This document shows, piece by piece, positions 4,631 to 21,569 of a stretch of 64,000 nt of DNA. The notes beneath the pieces are model-generated. The model saw nothing but the letters and a program-made list of their open reading frames with translations, searched no databases and was not told the origin of the DNA. Position 1 is the stretch's first letter. Each line of letters starts with the position of its first letter. The DNA lies in contig CAZRHR010000002.1 in assembly GCA_964599915.1 (NCBI GenBank), positions 3,617 through 67,616 on the forward strand, written 5' to 3'. This DNA is from an uncultured Candidatus Competibacteraceae bacterium. GTDB taxonomy: Bacteria > Bacteroidota > Bacteroidia > CAIKAF01. Made by a program: the position numbers and the translations under genes.

Positions 4631-5650
4631 ATGACAAACGCTCCATCCGCCTCTCGCATCAAAGAAATAGGTCGTATCCTTTTATTTTTAAGCCTTGGCG
4701 TGGCAGTAGTGTGGATTTTCTGGATTCGTATGGATGCAGAAGACAAAATGGCTTTTGGCCGTGCGCTGAAAGAAGCATCTTATGGCTGGATCATCCTTTC
4801 TTTTGGCATGGGACTGCTGAGTCACTACATTCGTGCATGGCGGTGGAGAGAACTCCTTGAAGTTTTTTCTTTTAAACCCAAAATGTACAACCTGTTCTTT
4901 GCGGTCATGAACATGTATTTTTTCAACATGTTGGTGCCGCGTTTAGGAGAAATCACCCGATGTGGTCTTCTACGCCAATATGAACAAGTCCCCATGGAAA
5001 AAGGATTGGGTTCGGTGGTCGCAGAGCGCGCCGTGGACATGCTCATGCTTTTGGGCATTATGGGACTTACCGCACTCATTCAATGGCAGCATTTCGGGAG
5101 CATTATTGCACAACTTCAGGCAAAGGGTGGCGGTGCGGCAGACGCCTCCGGGCCATCCTATACCAAATATTTCATTTTAGGCTTTTTCCTCCTTCTTTTC
5201 GTGGTGGGATTCTTGCTAAGAAAACACCCTAAAGTGCAGCCCTTACTTGGAAAAATTAAAAATTTAGCTTTGGGATTTTGGGAGGGACTTCGCGCCGTAA
5301 CCAAACTTCGCCGGCCAGGTCTATTTATCCTGCAAACGTTACTCATCTGGGGCTTGTATTATGGCATGTCTTGGGTTTGCTTTTTGTCTATGCCTCAGGT
5401 GCCTGCGCCTTGGCTTTCACCCTTGACCATCATGGCCGCAGGTTCCATTGCCATCATTGTGGTTCCGGGTGGCATTGGCGCCTTCCCTGTCATTGTTGCC
5501 GCAGTGCTGGGTTTGCCACATTTAGGTAGTGTGCCAGATGGCGAAGGACTCGCCCTAGGTTGGATCATTTGGGGCGCGCAAACGTCTGTTGTTTTGATTG
5601 CAGGAGCGCTGAGTTTGGCACTGGTTCCTCTTTTCAACCGAAAAAAATAA
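4631..5650 (+). CDS. polytopic membrane protein, lysylphosphatidylglycerol-synthase-TM-region-like (UPF0104 flippase-like)
   Basis: 339 aa with many predicted TM helices and the general architecture of UPF0104 proteins. The family call is tentative. Confidence 0.45.
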   Translation: MTNAPSASRIKEIGRILLFLSLGVAVVWIFWIRMDAEDKMAFGRALKEASYGWIILSFGMGLLSHYIRAWRWRELLEVFSFKPKMYNLFFAVMNMYFFNMLVPRLGEITRCGLLRQYEQVPMEKGLGSVVAERAVDMLMLLGIMGLTALIQWQHFGSIIAQLQAKGGGAADASGPSYTKYFILGFFLLLFVVGFLLRKHPKVQPLLGKIKNLALGFWEGLRAVTKLRRPGLFILQTLLIWGLYYGMSWVCFLSMPQVPAPWLSPLTIMAAGSIAIIVVPGGIGAFPVIVAAVLGLPHLGSVPDGEGLALGWIIWGAQTSVVLIAGALSLALVPLFNRKK

Positions 5651-17936: not shown

Positions 17937-19118
17937 ATGTACCCAGCCCATTTTTTTGCGGTTCATCAAGCGCTGGAAACCATATTTTCCGGACAAAAGC
18001 CGGCAGATAAGGTGTTAGAACAGCTTTTCAAAACCCAGAAAAAAATGGGAGGGAAAGACCGTGGCGTTATTGCAGAAGCCACGTATGGCACCGTCCGTTT
18101 TTGGCGATTACTCAACACCCTTTCGGGGCGAGAGGCCACAGACCTGTCCATCGAGGCCAACGGAATCCGCGTAGGACTGTGGCATAGGCTACAAGGAAAA
18201 GCGGTTCCTGCCTTGAAAGAATGTACCCAAGCAGGGAAAATAGACCTTGCCGGAATAAAACATTTACCCCACGCCGTGCGGGCCTCCATACCAGATTGGT
18301 TGGAAGACCTTGGAGACAAAGCCTATGGCCATCAATGGCCAACGCTTATGGAAGCATTGAATCAGCCGGCACCCGTCCATTTCCGAATCAATACGCTGAA
18401 AATAGCCCCGAAAAACTTTTTTTCCGAAACCACTTTACCCGTTCGACCGGTGGAACATTTCCCCTATGGTGCGGTAGCAAAAGAAAGAATGTCGGTATTT
18501 CGGCACCCGGAGTATTTAGCAGGACAAATTGAAATTCAGGATTTAGGCTCCCAGCAGATTGGACCGTTTTTAGAGGTGACACCAGGAATGCGCGTGATTG
18601 ATGCCTGTGCAGGTGGAGGTGGAAAAGCCCTTCATTTGGCAGCTTTAATGGAAAATAAAGGGCAAATCCTGGCCATGGACATTCATGGTTGGAAACTTGA
18701 ACAAGTAAAAATTAGGGCTAAAAGGGCTGGTGCACACAATCTGGAAATCCGGGTCATAGAAAACCAAAAAACCATCAAACGCTTAGCCAAATCGGCCGAT
18801 CGGGTGTTGCTCGATGTGCCATGTTCCGGATTGGGCGTTTTGCGAAGAAATCCGGATGCCAAATGGAAAATGCAACCGGAGAGAATACAGGAACTCATTC
18901 AAATACAAAGAGACATCCTAGATAAGTATGCGGAGATGGTGAAGCCGGGTGGAAAATTGGTGTATGCCACCTGTTCTATTCTGGTGGAAGAAAACCAAGC
19001 CCAGGTTCAGCATTTTTTACAAAATCATACAGACTTCACCTTTGAGGAAGATCATTTTCAACCTCCCGGCCTCACCGATGGGTTTTACATGGCCCGAATG
19101 AAAAGAAAGGCGGAGTAG
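17937..19118 (+). CDS. 16S rRNA m5C methyltransferase, RsmB/RsmF (NOL1/NOP2/Sun) family
   Basis: SAM-binding motif DACAGGGGKALH and catalytic motifs LDVPCSGLGVLRRNPD and YATCS. Confidence 0.85.
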   Translation: MYPAHFFAVHQALETIFSGQKPADKVLEQLFKTQKKMGGKDRGVIAEATYGTVRFWRLLNTLSGREATDLSIEANGIRVGLWHRLQGKAVPALKECTQAGKIDLAGIKHLPHAVRASIPDWLEDLGDKAYGHQWPTLMEALNQPAPVHFRINTLKIAPKNFFSETTLPVRPVEHFPYGAVAKERMSVFRHPEYLAGQIEIQDLGSQQIGPFLEVTPGMRVIDACAGGGGKALHLAALMENKGQILAMDIHGWKLEQVKIRAKRAGAHNLEIRVIENQKTIKRLAKSADRVLLDVPCSGLGVLRRNPDAKWKMQPERIQELIQIQRDILDKYAEMVKPGGKLVYATCSILVEENQAQVQHFLQNHTDFTFEEDHFQPPGLTDGFYMARMKRKAE

Positions 19119-19138
19119 GGTTAGACTAATTAAATCAT

Positions 19139-20076
19139 ATTGAGTCCATCGAAACGTGGCCGTTGAGTCTACCGAAACGCGGTCGTTGAGTCTACCGAAA
19201 CGTGGTCGTTGAGTTTACCGAAACGAATAAGGCGACAATCGAAATTTGGGGCTACGCCCACCCCTCCCCGTAGTCAATTTATCGAAACAGTCCGACATCA
19301 TTCGGATATTAAACGTGTATAATTGATTAAAATTGATGGGTCTAAGATTTCAATAATTCCTCAGGACCAATTTGATAAAATGCCTTGGTTGAGCGCGCCG
19401 AAACGCGGTCGTTGAGTTTATCGAAACGAATAAGGCGAATACCAAAAATTGGGGCTACGCCCACCCCTCCCCGTAGTCAATTTATCGAAACAGTCCGACA
19501 TCATTCGGATATTAAACGTGTATAATTGATTAAAATTGATGGGTCTAAGATTTCAATAATTGCTCAGGACCAATTTGATAAAATGCCTTGGTTGAGCGCG
19601 CCGAAACGTGGTCGTTGAGTTTACCGAAACGAATAAGGCGACAATCGAAATTTGGGGCTACGCCCACCCCTCCCCGTGGTCAATCTATAGAAATAGTCCC
19701 ACATCATTCGGATAGTAAACGTGTATAAACGATTAAAATTAATGGTGCTGAGATTTCAATTATTACTCAGAACCCATTTGATAAAATGCCGTGGTTGAGT
19801 TTACCGAAACGCGGCCGTTGAGTTTACCGAAACGTGGTCGTTGAGTCTATCGAAACGTGGTCGTTGAGTTTACCGAAACGCGGCCGTTGAGTCTGCCGAA
19901 ACGTGGTCGTTGAGTCCATCGAAACGAATAAGGCGAAAACCAAAAATTGGGGCTACGCCCACCCCTCCCCGTGGTCAATCTATAGAAATAGTCCCACATC
20001 ATTCGGATAGTAAACGTGTATAAACGATTAAAATTGATGGTGCTGAGATGTCAATAATTGCTCAGGAGCAATTTTA
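19139..20076. repeat. nested (higher-order) tandem repeat: 4 macro-units, each 2-6 copies of 23-bp GTTGAGTYTACCGAAACGYGGYC plus a ~153-bp unit; no ORF
   Basis: GTTGAG recurs at 19162, 19185, 19208, 19388, 19411, 19591, 19614, 19794, 19817, 19840, 19863, 19886 and 19909, with exact 23-bp phasing inside each block. The ~153-bp units at 19235-19387 and 19438-19590 are near-identical (subfamily A); those at 19641-19793 and 19936-~20076 are near-identical (subfamily B). Confidence 0.9.
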
Positions 20077-20402
20077 TTTCGCTTACAGATATGACCAGAA
20101 GTCAAATGCAAGATGTGGTTATTATTAAATGGCTTAGCTTAAAAAGTACCATTGAATACCTTGGTGTATGGTAAGCCTCGTACAACCCTGATTTTAATTA
20201 CACCGAATCCGGTACAATTAGAAATGGAGTAGGCAGCAATACCTTTGATTTATTTGTTAAAAACAGGATAGATGCAACCAACGTCTATTGGTCTTTCTGC
20301 AAAAGCCGGCAGATATGGTGGAACCTACGGGCACAAAGACATTGCTTTCCATGTTGGAATGTGGATTCGTGTTATACTCCTTTTTCCCTAGCCACCAACC
20401 GC

Positions 20403-21488
20403 TTACAAAAACTTATCTCCCAAAGTCAGCTTGATGTCATTGAGATAGTTTTTTATCTCCTGCTCGTCCTGCTTGCGGCATACCAACAACATGTTTTCCG
20501 ACTCTGCCACAATCATGTCGGAAAGGCCTTGAAGCACTACGAGGCGTTTACCTTGCAGGTGAATCATGCAATCTTTGGTATCATAAACCAAAATGGGCTG
20601 TCCGGCAATGGCGTTTTGGTGCTCATCTTTGGGCAATTGTTCATATAAAGAACCCCAAGTGCCTAAGTCACTCCAGCCAAAGTCGGCCATAAGCATGGCC
20701 ACATTGGTAGCTTTTTCCATGATTCCGTAATCTACGGAGATGTTGCGCACCATGGTGTATACCTGACGAAGTTTATCCTTGGCTTTAGGTGTTTCCCATA
20801 CGGTTTCCATTTCCTGAAACAAGGCCGCTTCTTCGGGCAAATACTGCTGAAATGCCTGAATAAAATCGGATGCTTTCCAAATAAAATTTCCGGAATTCCA
20901 GAAGAATTCACCCGTACTTAAAAAAGTTTCTGCCAACTCACGGTTGGGTTTTTCGGTAAAGGTTTTCACCTTCCGCACTTTGGGATGCTGAGGCACCGGC
21001 TTGGGTTCAAACTGTATGTACCCATATCCTGTGTCCGGCCTATGGGGCTTAACGCCCAAGGTCAGCAACATGGGTTGTTGGTTCACAAAATCCAAACCTT
21101 CCTTTAAGATTTGGGCAAAGGCATCTTCTCGTAAAATAAGATGATCCGCCGCGGCCACGACCAAGCAAGCATTGGGATCGGAATGATGAATGCGATAGGC
21201 GGCGAAGGCTGCACAGGGTGCCGTATTTTTACGTGCGGGCTCGGCTAAAATATGGGCTGAAGAAAGTTGAGGAAGCTGTTCGGCGACCAAATGAGCATAA
21301 TCCTCGTTAGTAACCACCCAAATATTTTCTTCGGGGCAAACCATGGCCATGCGCCTATACGTGGCTTGCAGCAAGGTTTCGCCCGTTCCTAAAATATCCA
21401 GAAACTGCTTGGGCAAATCTTTCCGTGACATCGGCCAGAACCGACTTCCCACTCCACCGGCCATAATCACGGCATGATAATGTTGCAT
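20403..21488 (-). CDS. manC: mannose-1-phosphate guanylyltransferase
   Basis: MQHYHAVIMAGGVGSRFWPMSRKDLPKQF is the nucleotidyltransferase G-loop typical of GDP-mannose pyrophosphorylase. Start placed at the ATG at 21488. Confidence 0.85.
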   Translation of the reverse strand: MQHYHAVIMAGGVGSRFWPMSRKDLPKQFLDILGTGETLLQATYRRMAMVCPEENIWVVTNEDYAHLVAEQLPQLSSAHILAEPARKNTAPCAAFAAYRIHHSDPNACLVVAAADHLILREDAFAQILKEGLDFVNQQPMLLTLGVKPHRPDTGYGYIQFEPKPVPQHPKVRKVKTFTEKPNRELAETFLSTGEFFWNSGNFIWKASDFIQAFQQYLPEEAALFQEMETVWETPKAKDKLRQVYTMVRNISVDYGIMEKATNVAMLMADFGWSDLGTWGSLYEQLPKDEHQNAIAGQPILVYDTKDCMIHLQGKRLVVLQGLSDMIVAESENMLLVCRKQDEQEIKNYLNDIKLTLGDKFL

Positions 21489-21569
21489 GGCAATCAGGTA
21501 TTGAGGTACAAACTTACATAACGCTACCACATTTCCCAACCCGGTGTAAGGTTCTTATCTAAAGAAGGG

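What the first reader, a model, noticed from the sequence alone, without database searches (positions are those of the whole stretch)
19139..20076. ORF-free nested tandem repeat between convergent genes: 23-bp iteron-like minisatellite embedded in a four-copy ~240-bp higher-order repeat
Seen directly: the 23-bp unit GTTGAGTYTACCGAAACGYGGYC occurs in head-to-tail blocks of 4, 2, 2 and 6 copies with exact 23-bp phasing, about two helical turns. The last copy of each block is a 27-bp variant ending GAATAAGGCG in place of YGGYC (GTTGAGTYYAYCGAAACGAATAAGGCG). Each block is followed by a ~153-bp unit. Copies 1 and 2 of that unit are near-identical, and copies 3 and 4 are near-identical but diverge from 1 and 2, an AABB pattern consistent with recent adjacent duplications. 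The long unit carries a conserved G/C palindromic core (GGGGCTACGCCCACCCCTCCCC, i.e. GGGC-TAC-GCCC) and an AT-rich TATAAT-containing segment. There is no ORF of 60 aa or more and no protein-coding periodicity, since 23 is not a multiple of 3. The array fills most of a 1.28-kb non-coding gap between the 3' ends of rsmB-like and manC, in an otherwise very compact window. It is not a CRISPR array: the repeats abut without unique spacers, and the unit is only 23 bp. Hypotheses are a phased protein-binding array (iteron or centromere/parS-like, nucleoid protein or transcription factor), tandemly duplicated small-RNA genes, or a hypervariable VNTR locus. I know of no described element with this exact architecture, and I see no partner protein gene (rep, par, cas) in the window.
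Basis: seen in the sequence. Interest (0 to 1): 0.8.

Follow-up and report, generated by a model that had tools for sequence, protein, structure and literature searches.

The report
Strain-variable nested repeat in mobile-gene relic
The nested repeat is real, but it is a copy-number-variable amplification of the front end of a dead, horizontally acquired KilA-N gene fragment and the short repeats upstream of it, not a replication origin, centromere, CRISPR array or small-RNA gene cluster.

Summary
Window 19139-20076 holds 14 phased 23-bp units in blocks of 4, 2, 2 and 6, interleaved with four ~150-bp long units.

The interpretation changes on three points.
- The whole 1.28-kb rsmB-manC gap is a lineage-specific insertion. 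In relatives with 80-85% RsmB identity, the two genes overlap at their stop codons.
- The 3' third of every long unit is codons ~7-23 of a KilA-N gene. The rest of that truncated, frameshifted gene lies at 20064-20367.
- Sister strains (94-97% nt identity) carry the same cassette with 1 or 2 long units and 4 or 6 short units. The window has 4 long units. At least three other assemblies break inside the array. This is a nested VNTR.

The other two modules are not unique. The 23-bp unit (GTTGAG-N5-CGAAACG-NGGTC) recurs as short intergenic tandem arrays in a few Bacteroidota and Chloroflexota MAGs. The GC-rich core module recurs at two unrelated metagenome loci. Together they resemble modular BOX/MIRU-type repeats.

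There is no rep, par, cas or transposase gene in the window. I found no Rfam hit, no promoter, no RNA structure and no plasmid or phage match.

Best reading: a neutral, recombination-driven minisatellite in decaying foreign DNA. A protein-binding or 3'-UTR role for the 23-mer family is not excluded.

The parts
17937..19118 (+). rsmB/F-type rRNA methyltransferase gene. It forms the left boundary of the insertion.
   Evidence: Pfam Methyltr_RsmB-F, E = 9e-49. In relatives L015 and L017 its stop codon overlaps the manC stop codon.
19119..19138 (+). Left edge of the inserted DNA (..CTAATTAAATCAT). It resembles the ATAAAATGCC 5' module seen at the internal junctions.
   Evidence: Sequence. The comparison with the internal junctions and with L009 is by eye.
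19139..19234 (+). 23-bp block 1: three 23-mers plus the 27-bp GAATAAGGCG variant.
19235..19325 (+). Long unit 1, GC-core module: linker, GGGGCTACGCCCACCCCTCCCC at 19248-19269, a short hairpin and TATAAT.
   Evidence: It aligns with the unrelated loci L008 and L009 (blastn 77% over 90 bp, E = 4e-13).
19326..19376 (+). Long unit 1, KilA-N 5' remnant (IKIDGSKISIIPQDQFD, matching residues 7-23 of intact homologue P0121).
   Evidence: tblastn and DNA alignment with the intact gene in L023.
19374..19437 (+). Internal junction GATAAAATGCCTTG, then 23-bp block 2 (one 23-mer plus the 27-bp variant).
   Evidence: The same junction occurs in L048 and L049.
19438..19579 (+). Long unit 2: GC core at 19451-19472 and KilA-N remnant at 19529-19579.
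19577..19640 (+). Internal junction, then 23-bp block 3 (one 23-mer plus the 27-bp variant).
19641..19782 (+). Long unit 3: GC core at 19654-19675 and KilA-N remnant from 19732.
19780..19935 (+). Internal junction, then 23-bp block 4 (five 23-mers plus the 27-bp variant).
19936..20074 (+). Long unit 4: GC core at 19949-19970 and KilA-N remnant at 20027-20074. It is continuous with the downstream pseudogene.
20064..20367 (+). KilA-N pseudogene body (residues ~21-121 of a ~270-aa family). It has a 5-bp deletion, one in-frame stop and one frameshift, and is truncated at GMWI. It contains a decayed copy of the family's 32-bp palindrome at 20192-20223.
   Evidence: Translation; tblastn 70-90% identity to P0121 and P0135; homologue search, PF04383; palindrome.
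20368..20402 (+). Right edge of the inserted DNA, of unknown origin, abutting the manC stop codon.
   Evidence: Comparison of L010 with L015.
20403..21539 (-). manC-type mannose-1-phosphate guanylyltransferase gene. It forms the right boundary of the insertion.
   Evidence: Pfam NTP_transferase plus ManC_GMP_beta-helix.

Best explanation
The locus is a nested, copy-number-variable tandem repeat that arose inside a small piece of decaying foreign DNA.

Shown:
- An ancestor of this ~95%-identical strain cluster acquired about 0.6 kb between the formerly overlapping stop codons of rsmB and manC.
- The insert has three parts. The first is a short array of 23-bp direct repeats. The second is an ~80-bp GC-core module. 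The third is a KilA-N gene fragment that lacks its start codon and its C-terminal half.
- Strains differ in the number of 23-mers (4 or 6).
- Strains also differ in the number of copies (1, 2 or 4) of a 203-bp higher-order unit. That unit runs from just upstream of the 23-mers to codon ~23 of the KilA-N fragment.
- The repeat copies are mosaic.

Inferred:
- The 23-mers expand and contract by slipped-strand mispairing.
- One illegitimate join (CAATTTG|ATAAAATGCC) created the first higher-order duplication.
- Unequal recombination and gene conversion between copies then produced the 1-, 2- and 4-copy alleles.
- The array has no dedicated cellular function at this site. It lies between the 3' ends of two convergent housekeeping genes and next to a dead gene.

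The 23-mer and the GC-core module each belong to small families of intergenic repeats that occur elsewhere. The cassette upstream of KilA-N is best described as a modular, BOX/MIRU-like repeat element.
For: - Empty site. In L015, L016 and L017 (RsmB 80-85% identical) rsmB and manC overlap by about 6 bp at TTATAA.
- Allelic series at the same site. The pattern is rrrV-[L] in L010, L011, L013 and L014; rrrrrV-[L] in L012; and rrrV-[L]-rV-[L] in L048 and L049. The window has four L units. One further JGI contig without DNA has a gap 46 bp shorter.
- Assembly breaks. Contigs end inside the first 23-mer block in three Logan assemblies, including contigs of 193 kb and 57 kb. Two further contigs, L050 and L051, begin inside the last long unit.
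- KilA-N origin of the long unit. The reconstructed peptide matches more than 1,200 PF04383 proteins at 67-91% identity over 99% of its length. Each of the four units encodes IKIDG..ISII.Q..FD. The DNA aligns with the intact gene in L023, showing a ~30-bp deletion of the start codon.
- Pseudogene status. There is a stop codon, a frameshift and truncation at residue ~121. The remnant is 91-92% identical between strains, against 94-97% for the flanking genes.
- Mobile origin of KilA-N. Homologues lie on Saprospiraceae, Aeromonas and Pasteurella plasmids, in Staphylococcus phage EW, in Streptococcus satellite phages and in IMG/VR contigs.
- The modules are independent of KilA-N. The intact homologues in L023, L024, L044 and L052 have no 23-mers or GC core upstream.
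- The modules are dispersed. The 23-mer pattern occurs at 6 loci in 4 MAGs and at L045/L046. The GC core occurs at L008 and L009.
- No partner genes or signals.
Against: - Substitutions in 30 units of this lineage are not spread evenly. T2, G6, A14-G18, G20, G21 and C23 are invariant, and change is concentrated at positions 8-11, 19 and 22. The trailing GGTC is also shared with arrays from other taxa, although the search pattern did not require it. This pattern hints at sequence constraint rather than pure neutrality.
- The 22-nt GC core is identical in all 12 long units examined, while 19% of the other columns vary.
- In all 6 loci where the upstream gene is known, the 23-mers follow a same-strand stop codon. 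This could reflect a role in the transcript.
- Single-copy alleles could be collapsed short-read assemblies.
- The source genome outside the 64-kb window could not be searched for other copies or for a partner protein.
Confidence: 0.72

Rival explanations
1. The upstream cassette is a mobile, non-autonomous modular element of the BOX/MITE type. It would consist of a 5' module ATAAAATGCC, n copies of the 23-mer, a linker and the GC-core module. In this reading it transposes or is copied into 3' intergenic regions, and its presence here reflects its own insertion rather than hitch-hiking with KilA-N.
For: - L009 has the same 5' module (TTAAAATGCCCGG), a partial 23-mer (ATTCGAAAAC), the linker and the GC-core module about 55 bp after folA, in an unrelated context.
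- L008 has the GC-core module after a T9SS-type gene, with a degenerate CGAAAC-GTTGAGTTACC about 110 bp downstream.
- A MAG labelled Marinifilum carries the 23-mer pair with shared flanks at two loci, L006 and L007, plus a third locus, L002.
- L009 ends about 55 bp after the GC core. The Logan contigs L001, L047 and L053 end inside the 23-mer block.
Against: - No terminal inverted repeats or clear target-site duplication were found at the L010 insertion (junction comparison).
- There is no second copy in the 64-kb window or in 21 kb of relatives.
- Only 2 exact core matches were found in the metagenome collection and only 6 tandem-23-mer loci in 185,579 genomes, so any mobility is rare.
- No transposase is nearby.
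- There is no stable fold.
Confidence: 0.15
2. The 23-bp units are phased binding sites for a sequence-specific DNA-binding protein encoded elsewhere, possibly a KilA-N-family protein. The array would then act as a protein sink, operator array or nucleoid or partition site.
For: - The period is an exact 23 bp with no indels. Two blocks, (G)TTGAG and CGAAACG, are conserved and separated by a variable 5-mer.
- The array avoids self-structure, as a duplex site would.
- The adjacent gene fragment belongs to a DNA-binding domain family.
- KilA-N genes carry a DNA-level-conserved 32-bp palindrome. Its half-site TACCGAA also occurs in this lineage's 23-mers.
Against: - The local KilA-N gene is dead in every strain examined.
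- Intact KilA-N genes elsewhere lack the 23-mers, and 23-mer loci elsewhere lack KilA-N.
- The shared 7-mer is expected by chance at about 0.04 and runs through variable positions.
- The locus is dispensable, being absent in relatives.
- No par or rep partner is present and there is no parS-like site.
Confidence: 0.08
3. The repeats act in RNA as part of the 3' UTR of the upstream gene. They could be a protein-binding or sponge element, or a terminator or stabiliser module, or a set of tandem small RNAs.
For: - In 6 of 6 loci the 23-mers are co-oriented with, and 3-220 bp downstream of, a same-strand stop codon. The GC-core module is co-oriented in 3 of 3 loci.
- On the minus strand, the GC core followed by AATTTTTGG scores as a weak intrinsic terminator in two units. 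These would face transcripts reading in from manC.
Against: - No Rfam family matches, even at E <= 10.
- No promoter-like site was found. The scan covers sigma-70 promoters only, so a Bacteroidota-type promoter is not excluded.
- Fold z-scores run from -1.4 to +0.7 for the core module and are +2.3 for the 23-mers.
- The small hairpin is broken in units 3 and 4.
- Orientation was counted in only 6 loci (p about 0.03), and an insertion bias would explain it equally well.
Confidence: 0.04
4. The four-fold array is an assembly artefact, produced by mis-joining or over-expansion of a simpler locus.
For: - Short-read assemblies of the same strains break here.
- The count of four long units is seen only in the window.
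Against: - The short units, the long unit and the internal junction are each reproduced in several independent assemblies from ENA, JGI and Logan.
- The four copies differ by 4-14% in a structured, mosaic way, which mis-assembly would not create.
Confidence: 0.01

Closest known systems
Pneumococcal BOX elements (boxA - boxB(n) - boxC; Croucher et al. 2011, PMC3049150)
   Same: - Both are modular composite intergenic repeats, with terminal modules flanking a variable number of short tandem internal modules.
- Copy number of the internal module differs between strains.
- Both are often 3' of genes, and neither encodes its own protein.
   Different: - BOX elements have terminal inverted repeats, target-site duplications and a predicted stem-loop fold, and occur more than 100 times per genome (PMC3049150). 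None of these features was found here, and only one copy lies in the 64 kb.
- Here the whole composite plus a gene fragment is itself tandemly amplified.
MIRU-VNTR minisatellites of Mycobacterium tuberculosis (e.g. PMC3635867)
   Same: Both are intergenic head-to-tail repeats of tens of base pairs, with strain-to-strain copy-number variation and no known essential function. Both are usable as typing markers.
   Different: - By my recollection, MIRU units are 40-100 bp and lie at about 40 loci in one genome, often within operons.
- This unit is 23 bp and sits between convergent genes inside a recent insertion.
- It is nested in a 203-bp higher-order repeat.
Plasmid iterons and partition centromeres (F sopC, R1 parC; from my own knowledge)
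   Same: Both are directly repeated units of about 20 bp in exact helical phase.
   Different: - There is no adjacent rep or par gene, the locus is not on a plasmid or phage, and no similar sequence occurs in 72,556 plasmids.
- The locus is dispensable in relatives.
KilA-N domain genes of phages, plasmids and satellites (PF04383; Iyer, Koonin and Aravind 2002, from memory)
   Same: The 3' third of each long unit and window 20064-20367 are homologous to this family at 70-90% amino-acid identity.
   Different: The copy here lacks its start codon and C-terminal half, and carries a stop codon and a frameshift. It is a relic, not a gene.

Membership tests
Bacterial VNTR / minisatellite | Head-to-tail tandem copies of a 10-100-bp unit | tested here: met
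   TRF reports period 23 at 86-90% match, plus a 203-bp period.
Bacterial VNTR / minisatellite | Copy number differs between closely related strains at the same locus | tested here: met
   Contigs with 94-97% identical flanks carry 4 or 6 short units and 1, 2 or 4 long units.
BOX-like modular interspersed repeat / MITE | Terminal modules flanking a variable number of tandem internal modules | tested here: met
   The 5' ATAAAATGCC module, n x 23-mer, linker and GC-core module are present. L009 has the same end modules with only a partial 23-mer.
BOX-like modular interspersed repeat / MITE | Many dispersed copies within one genome | tested here: inconclusive
   No second copy occurs in the 64-kb window or in 21-kb relatives. 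Copies exist at unrelated loci in other contigs. The source genome itself could not be searched.
BOX-like modular interspersed repeat / MITE | Terminal inverted repeats and target-site duplication | tested here: not met
   The inverted-repeat scan of the L010 insertion found only an intragenic palindrome. No clear direct duplication is visible when the junctions are compared with the empty site.
REP/BIME elements | Unit is an imperfect palindrome forming a stable hairpin | tested here: not met
   The 23-mer block folds worse than all 200 shuffles, with z = +2.3 on both strands.
Plasmid/phage iterons | Adjacent rep gene and location on an extrachromosomal or mobile replicon | tested here: not met
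   Pfam scans of about 34 of the 67 ORFs of at least 120 aa, plus the gene tables of syntenic contigs for about 6.7-30 kb, found housekeeping genes only. The scanned part of the dcw cluster (mraZ, mraW, a PBP, ftsZ) is among them. ORFs at 45.7-55.6 kb were not scanned. There are no blastn hits in the plasmid or phage collections.
Plasmid/phage iterons | Required cis element, therefore conserved in relatives | tested here: not met
   Absent from L015, L016 and L017.
Partition centromere (parS/parC/sopC) | Neighbouring parAB/parMR genes or a match to the parS consensus | tested here: not met
   No par genes are present. parS-like matches are at chance level and lie outside the array.
CRISPR array | Repeats separated by unique spacers, cas genes, and repeats of 24-48 bp | tested here: not met
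   The units abut each other. No cas genes were found, and no Rfam CRISPR-DR hit appears at E <= 10.
Small-RNA gene / known RNA family | Match to a curated family, or promoter plus terminator plus conserved structure | tested here: not met
   Rfam gives nothing above noise. No sigma-70 promoter-like sites were found. Fold z-scores run from -1.4 to +0.7. Bacteroidota-type promoters were not scanned.
Type III toxin-antitoxin (ToxI-like) repeat RNA | Tandem repeats of about 36 nt upstream of a toxN-type gene | tested here: not met
   The only ToxI hit (E = 9.2) lies inside rsmB, not in the array. There is no downstream toxin gene.
KilA-N (PF04383) pseudogene | Significant similarity to family members, with a disrupted or truncated reading frame | tested here: met
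   Homologue search. tblastn gives 80% identity over residues 23-93 and 90% over residues 93-121, with a stop codon and a frameshift. Start codon and C-terminal half are missing.

The most novel reading that the evidence does not exclude
The 23-bp unit (GTTGAG-N5-CGAAACG-NGGTC) is an undescribed cross-phylum family of phased recognition sites found in Bacteroidota and Chloroflexota. The units sit just downstream of, and co-oriented with, gene 3' ends. A trans-acting protein would read them, possibly a KilA-N-type DNA binder whose own gene carries a DNA-level-conserved palindrome with the same TACCGAA half-site. Array length would be tuned by slippage. The window would then show an unusually expanded instance of a functional element rather than junk.
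Probability: 0.08. Interest if true: 0.65.

Novelty: new member of a known kind. Interest (0 to 1): 0.3.

Why it matters
- As it stands, the locus is a clean natural example of how a minisatellite seeds a higher-order tandem duplication in a bacterial chromosome. It comes with an allelic series: empty site, then 1, 2 and 4 copies.
- It would serve as a sensitive strain marker for this uncultured Bacteroidota lineage.
- It recurrently breaks short-read assemblies, which is a practical point for anyone assembling these genomes.
- It shows that an 'ORF-free' repeat can be partly built from a gene fragment.
- If the 23-mer family proved functional, it would add a repeat class for phyla in which interspersed repeats are, to my knowledge, little characterised.

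Tried and rejected
- **Rfam.** I searched the region at E <= 10 and the whole window at gathering thresholds. Only noise came back: SNORD63 at E = 2.4, and ToxI at E = 9.2 outside the array.
- **tRNA/tmRNA.** None found.
- **Viral contigs.** Scans for the GC core and for two forms of the tandem 23-mer pattern gave 0 hits.
- **Plasmid and phage blastn** with one full repeat unit gave no match.
- **Literature full-text search** for the motif strings and their spurious peptides found nothing relevant. A search on KilA-N, Bacteroidetes and tandem repeats found nothing on this element.
- **Long arrays elsewhere.** I searched 5.8 billion proteins with the open reverse-frame peptide of the common 23-mer variant. 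Only one ORF came back (L045/L046, 4 units), so long arrays are rare.
- **Are the 23-mers or the GC core the native upstream region of KilA-N genes?** Rejected. The intact homologues in L023, L024, L044 and L052 lack them.
- **Does L008 also carry a KilA-N remnant?** Rejected by tblastn.
- **A link between the 23-mers and GIY-YIG genes** was recalled from memory. It was seen only once, as a frameshifted remnant in L003, and was not pursued as a rule.
- **parS scan and GC-skew profile** showed no sign of a centromere, origin or terminus.
- **TIR/TSD search** at the insertion found none.
Full report
**1. Observation**

Tandem Repeats Finder reports a 23-bp period at 19140-19225 (3.7 copies) and at 19794-19926 (5.8 copies). 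It also reports a 203-bp period across 19195-19834. The 23-mer core occurs 12 times within 3 mismatches, against 0.09 expected by chance, and only in this interval and only on the + strand. The core GGGGCTACGCCCACCCCTCCCC occurs exactly four times.

Parsing gives rrrV-[L]-rV-[L]-rV-[L]-rrrrrV-[L]. Here r is a 23-mer, V is the 27-bp GAATAAGGCG variant and L is the long unit. The four long units align without gaps over their shared 169 columns. Identities are L1/L2 96%, L3/L4 93% and 86-91% between the two pairs. The first ~15 bp follow ABAB rather than AABB, so the copies are mosaics. No ORF in the array exceeds 51 aa.

**2. Context**

The flanks are hflX and an rsmB/F-type methyltransferase on the + strand. 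A manC-type nucleotidyltransferase and an SprT-like gene lie on the - strand. Every gene that was annotated is chromosomal housekeeping. I scanned about half of the ORFs of at least 120 aa with Pfam, including mraZ, mraW, a PBP, ftsZ, frr and pdxJ. Gene tables of syntenic contigs cover about 6.7-30 kb. No rep, par, cas, transposase or integrase gene appears in any of these. ORFs at 45.7-55.6 kb were not scanned. There is no tRNA and no Rfam family at gathering thresholds. GC skew shows no switch at the locus.

**3. Comparative evidence at the same site**

Contigs were fetched through RsmB homologues.

- **Relatives with 80-85% RsmB identity (L015, L016, L017).** rsmB and manC overlap by about 6 bp at TTATAA, with no intergenic DNA. 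The whole 1.28-kb gap is therefore an insertion specific to the window's lineage.
- **Sister strains.** Their flanking genes are 94-97% identical in nucleotides, and they carry the same cassette in different sizes:
  - four 23-mers and one long unit in four independent assemblies (L010, L011, L013, L014);
  - six 23-mers and one long unit in L012;
  - rrrV-[L]-rV-[L] in L048 and L049.
- **One further contig, for which no DNA was available.** Its gap is 46 bp (2 x 23) shorter.
- **The internal junction of the higher-order repeat.** The junction (CAATTTGATAAAATGCCgTGGTTG) is the same in L048, L049 and the window, so the duplication is real and shared.
- **Assembly breaks.** Three Logan contigs end inside the first 23-mer block. 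One encodes an RsmB identical to the window's, and the other two are 193 kb and 57 kb long. Two further contigs begin inside the last long unit.

Together these results establish copy-number polymorphism at two nested levels.

**4. What the long unit is**

In the single-copy strains the long unit runs directly into a 118- or 134-aa ORF that Pfam assigns to KilA-N. Reading one frame over, the last ~50 bp of the long unit encode LIKIDGVEISIIAQDQF. This is followed by FISLTDMARSQ..., which is a KilA-N N-terminus.

- The reconstructed 117-aa peptide matches more than 1,200 KilA-N proteins at 67-91% identity over 99% of its length.
- tblastn finds IKIDG[SA][KE]ISII.Q..FD, equal to residues 7-23 of the intact homologue P0121, in each of the window's four units. 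It also finds residues 21-121 at 20064-20367, interrupted by one stop codon and one frameshift (translation).
- DNA alignment with the intact gene in L023 shows that about 30 bp containing the start codon have been deleted.
- The gene ends at GMWI, about residue 121 of a ~270-aa family.

The fragment is dead in all strains, and it diverges faster than its neighbours (91-92% against 94-97%). L048-type strains keep the frame across CAATTTGATTTTATTTCG. L010-type strains and the window's fourth copy have a 5-bp deletion there, whereas copies 1-3 end with the undeleted CAATTTGAT. The duplication therefore appears to predate that deletion. Close KilA-N homologues lie on Saprospiraceae, Aeromonas and Pasteurella plasmids, in Staphylococcus phage EW, in Streptococcus satellite phages and in IMG/VR contigs. 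A horizontally acquired origin is therefore plausible.

**5. The other two modules are not part of KilA-N and are not unique**

Intact KilA-N genes in L023, L024, L044 and L052 have neither 23-mers nor the GC core upstream.

*The 23-mer.* I scanned one genome for each of 185,579 species for two in-phase units (GTTGAG-N5-CGAAACG, 26 specified bases, about 0.0003 chance hits expected). The scan found six intergenic loci: two in Saprospiraceae MAGs, three in a MAG labelled Marinifilum and one in a Chloroflexota MAG. Each holds 2-3 copies of units such as GGTCGTTGAGCCTGTCGAAACGC. Another locus (L045/L046) has four copies after a TPM-phosphatase gene. Long arrays are rare: a protein search with the open-frame peptide of the common variant returned only that locus.

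*The GC core.* It occurs at two unrelated metagenome loci, after a T9SS-type gene (L008) and after folA (L009). Similarity extends over about 90 bp (77% identity, E = 4e-13). L009 also carries TTAAAATGCCCGG plus a partial unit ATTCGAAAAC upstream of the core. This is the same 5' module that forms the window's internal junctions (ATAAAATGCCTTGG).

The upstream cassette is therefore modular: a 5' module, n x 23-mer, a linker and a GC-core module. That organisation is the one described for pneumococcal BOX elements, boxA-boxB(n)-boxC (PMC3049150). However, I found no terminal inverted repeats or target-site duplication and no second copy in the window or in 21 kb of relatives.

**6. Tests of functional readings**

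- **Iteron or centromere.** There are no partner genes and no plasmid or phage similarity. parS-like matches are at chance level and outside the array. The locus is dispensable in relatives.
- **RNA.** No Rfam hit appears even at E <= 10, and no sigma-70-like promoter is found. Fold z-scores for the GC-core module run from -1.4 to +0.7 on either strand. The 23-mer block folds worse than all 200 shuffles, with z = +2.3. The small TCCGA/TCGGA hairpin is broken in units 3 and 4.
- **CRISPR.** The units abut without spacers.

**7. Residual signals that keep a functional reading alive**

- Over 30 units from this lineage, T2, G6, A14-G18, G20, G21 and C23 never change. Substitutions pile up at positions 8-11, 19 and 22.
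- The trailing GGTC is shared with arrays from other taxa, although the search pattern did not require it.
- The 22-nt GC core is invariant in 12 long units in which 19% of the other columns vary.
- In all six loci where the upstream gene is known, the 23-mers follow a same-strand stop codon (two-sided p about 0.03).

These signals are compatible with constraint. They are also compatible with concerted evolution, ascertainment bias and an insertion bias.

**8. Most likely mechanism**

Shown: the insertion, the truncated KilA-N fragment, the modular cassette, and polymorphism at both repeat levels with mosaic copies.

Inferred: slipped-strand mispairing changes the number of 23-mers. One illegitimate join between codon ~23 of the KilA-N fragment and the 5' module created a 203-bp direct duplication. 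Unequal crossing-over and gene conversion between copies then generated the 1-, 2- and 4-copy alleles. The array lies between two convergent 3' ends and beside a dead gene, so I take it to be selectively near-neutral at this site.

**9. Verdict**

The feature is real, and as a repeat structure it is far above chance. It is a new member of a known kind: a bacterial VNTR or modular interspersed repeat embedded in a mobile-gene relic. The iteron/centromere and small-RNA hypotheses are not. Interest is modest. The most novel reading still open is that the 23-mer family is a functional, cross-phylum recognition array. I give that about 8%.

Noticed in passing
window 20192-20223 (decayed copy); L010 11555-11586; also L018, L019, L021, L022, L023, L024, L034, L044, L048: KilA-N genes of this family contain a 32-bp palindrome, TTTTAATTRTACCGAA|TTCGGTAYAATTAAAA (codons FN[YC]TEFGTIKN, centred on GAATTC). 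It is perfect in several homologues and has 1-2 arm mismatches in the others. The block is 91-100% nucleotide-identical between homologues that are only 71-83% identical overall. Only 1-2 codons are used per position there, against 3-4 elsewhere. This indicates constraint at the DNA or RNA level. A distant homologue on the Haliscomenobacter plasmid (L052) has different residues but still carries GTCGAATTCGAC at the same place.
   Followed up: partly
L034-L044 (e.g. L044 3910-3962 and ~4826-4840; L034 852-892): In another lineage, KilA-N homologues are flanked by heptamer tandem arrays (TGACAAG x7.6 upstream, ATTAACA x5.9 downstream). They sit between two giant DUF5724 genes, and the gene is split into 172-aa and 82-aa ORFs.
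   Followed up: partly
L003 1510-1700 and 1714-2010: A Saprospiraceae MAG carries hairpins GTCCC[TTCGACAAGCTCA]GGGAC and GCAC[TTCGACAAGCTCA]GTGC. The conserved loop is the reverse complement of the 23-mer core, and the stems covary. Next come 23-mers and then a frameshifted GIY-YIG remnant fused in frame to the next gene.
   Followed up: no
L015 11069-11074; L017 2690-2695: In relatives without the insertion, rsmB and manC share a palindromic TTATAA in which the two convergent stop codons overlap. The foreign DNA went in exactly at this point.
   Followed up: yes
L004 2907-3032; L006 2907-2949 and L007 490-540: The MAG contigs that carry 23-mers also hold other short tandem arrays. L004 has a 26-bp unit x4.8 running off the contig end. 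An 18-bp unit, GAGGTAGCACCTCTGGCA, occurs at two loci of the same MAG.
   Followed up: no
L006 40-125 and L007 300-215 (- strand): Two loci of the MAG labelled Marinifilum share about 20 bp of flank on each side of the 23-mer pair (GATTTTGCTGCCTATTGTGGT ... GAGATTTAGATGCGTTTGCCC). The dispersed unit there is therefore about 100 bp, not just the 23-mers.
   Followed up: no
window 19949-19965 and 19451-19467 (- strand): On the minus strand, the GC core followed by AATTTTTGG scores as a weak intrinsic terminator (5-bp stem) in units 2 and 4 only. These would face transcription reading out of manC.
   Followed up: no
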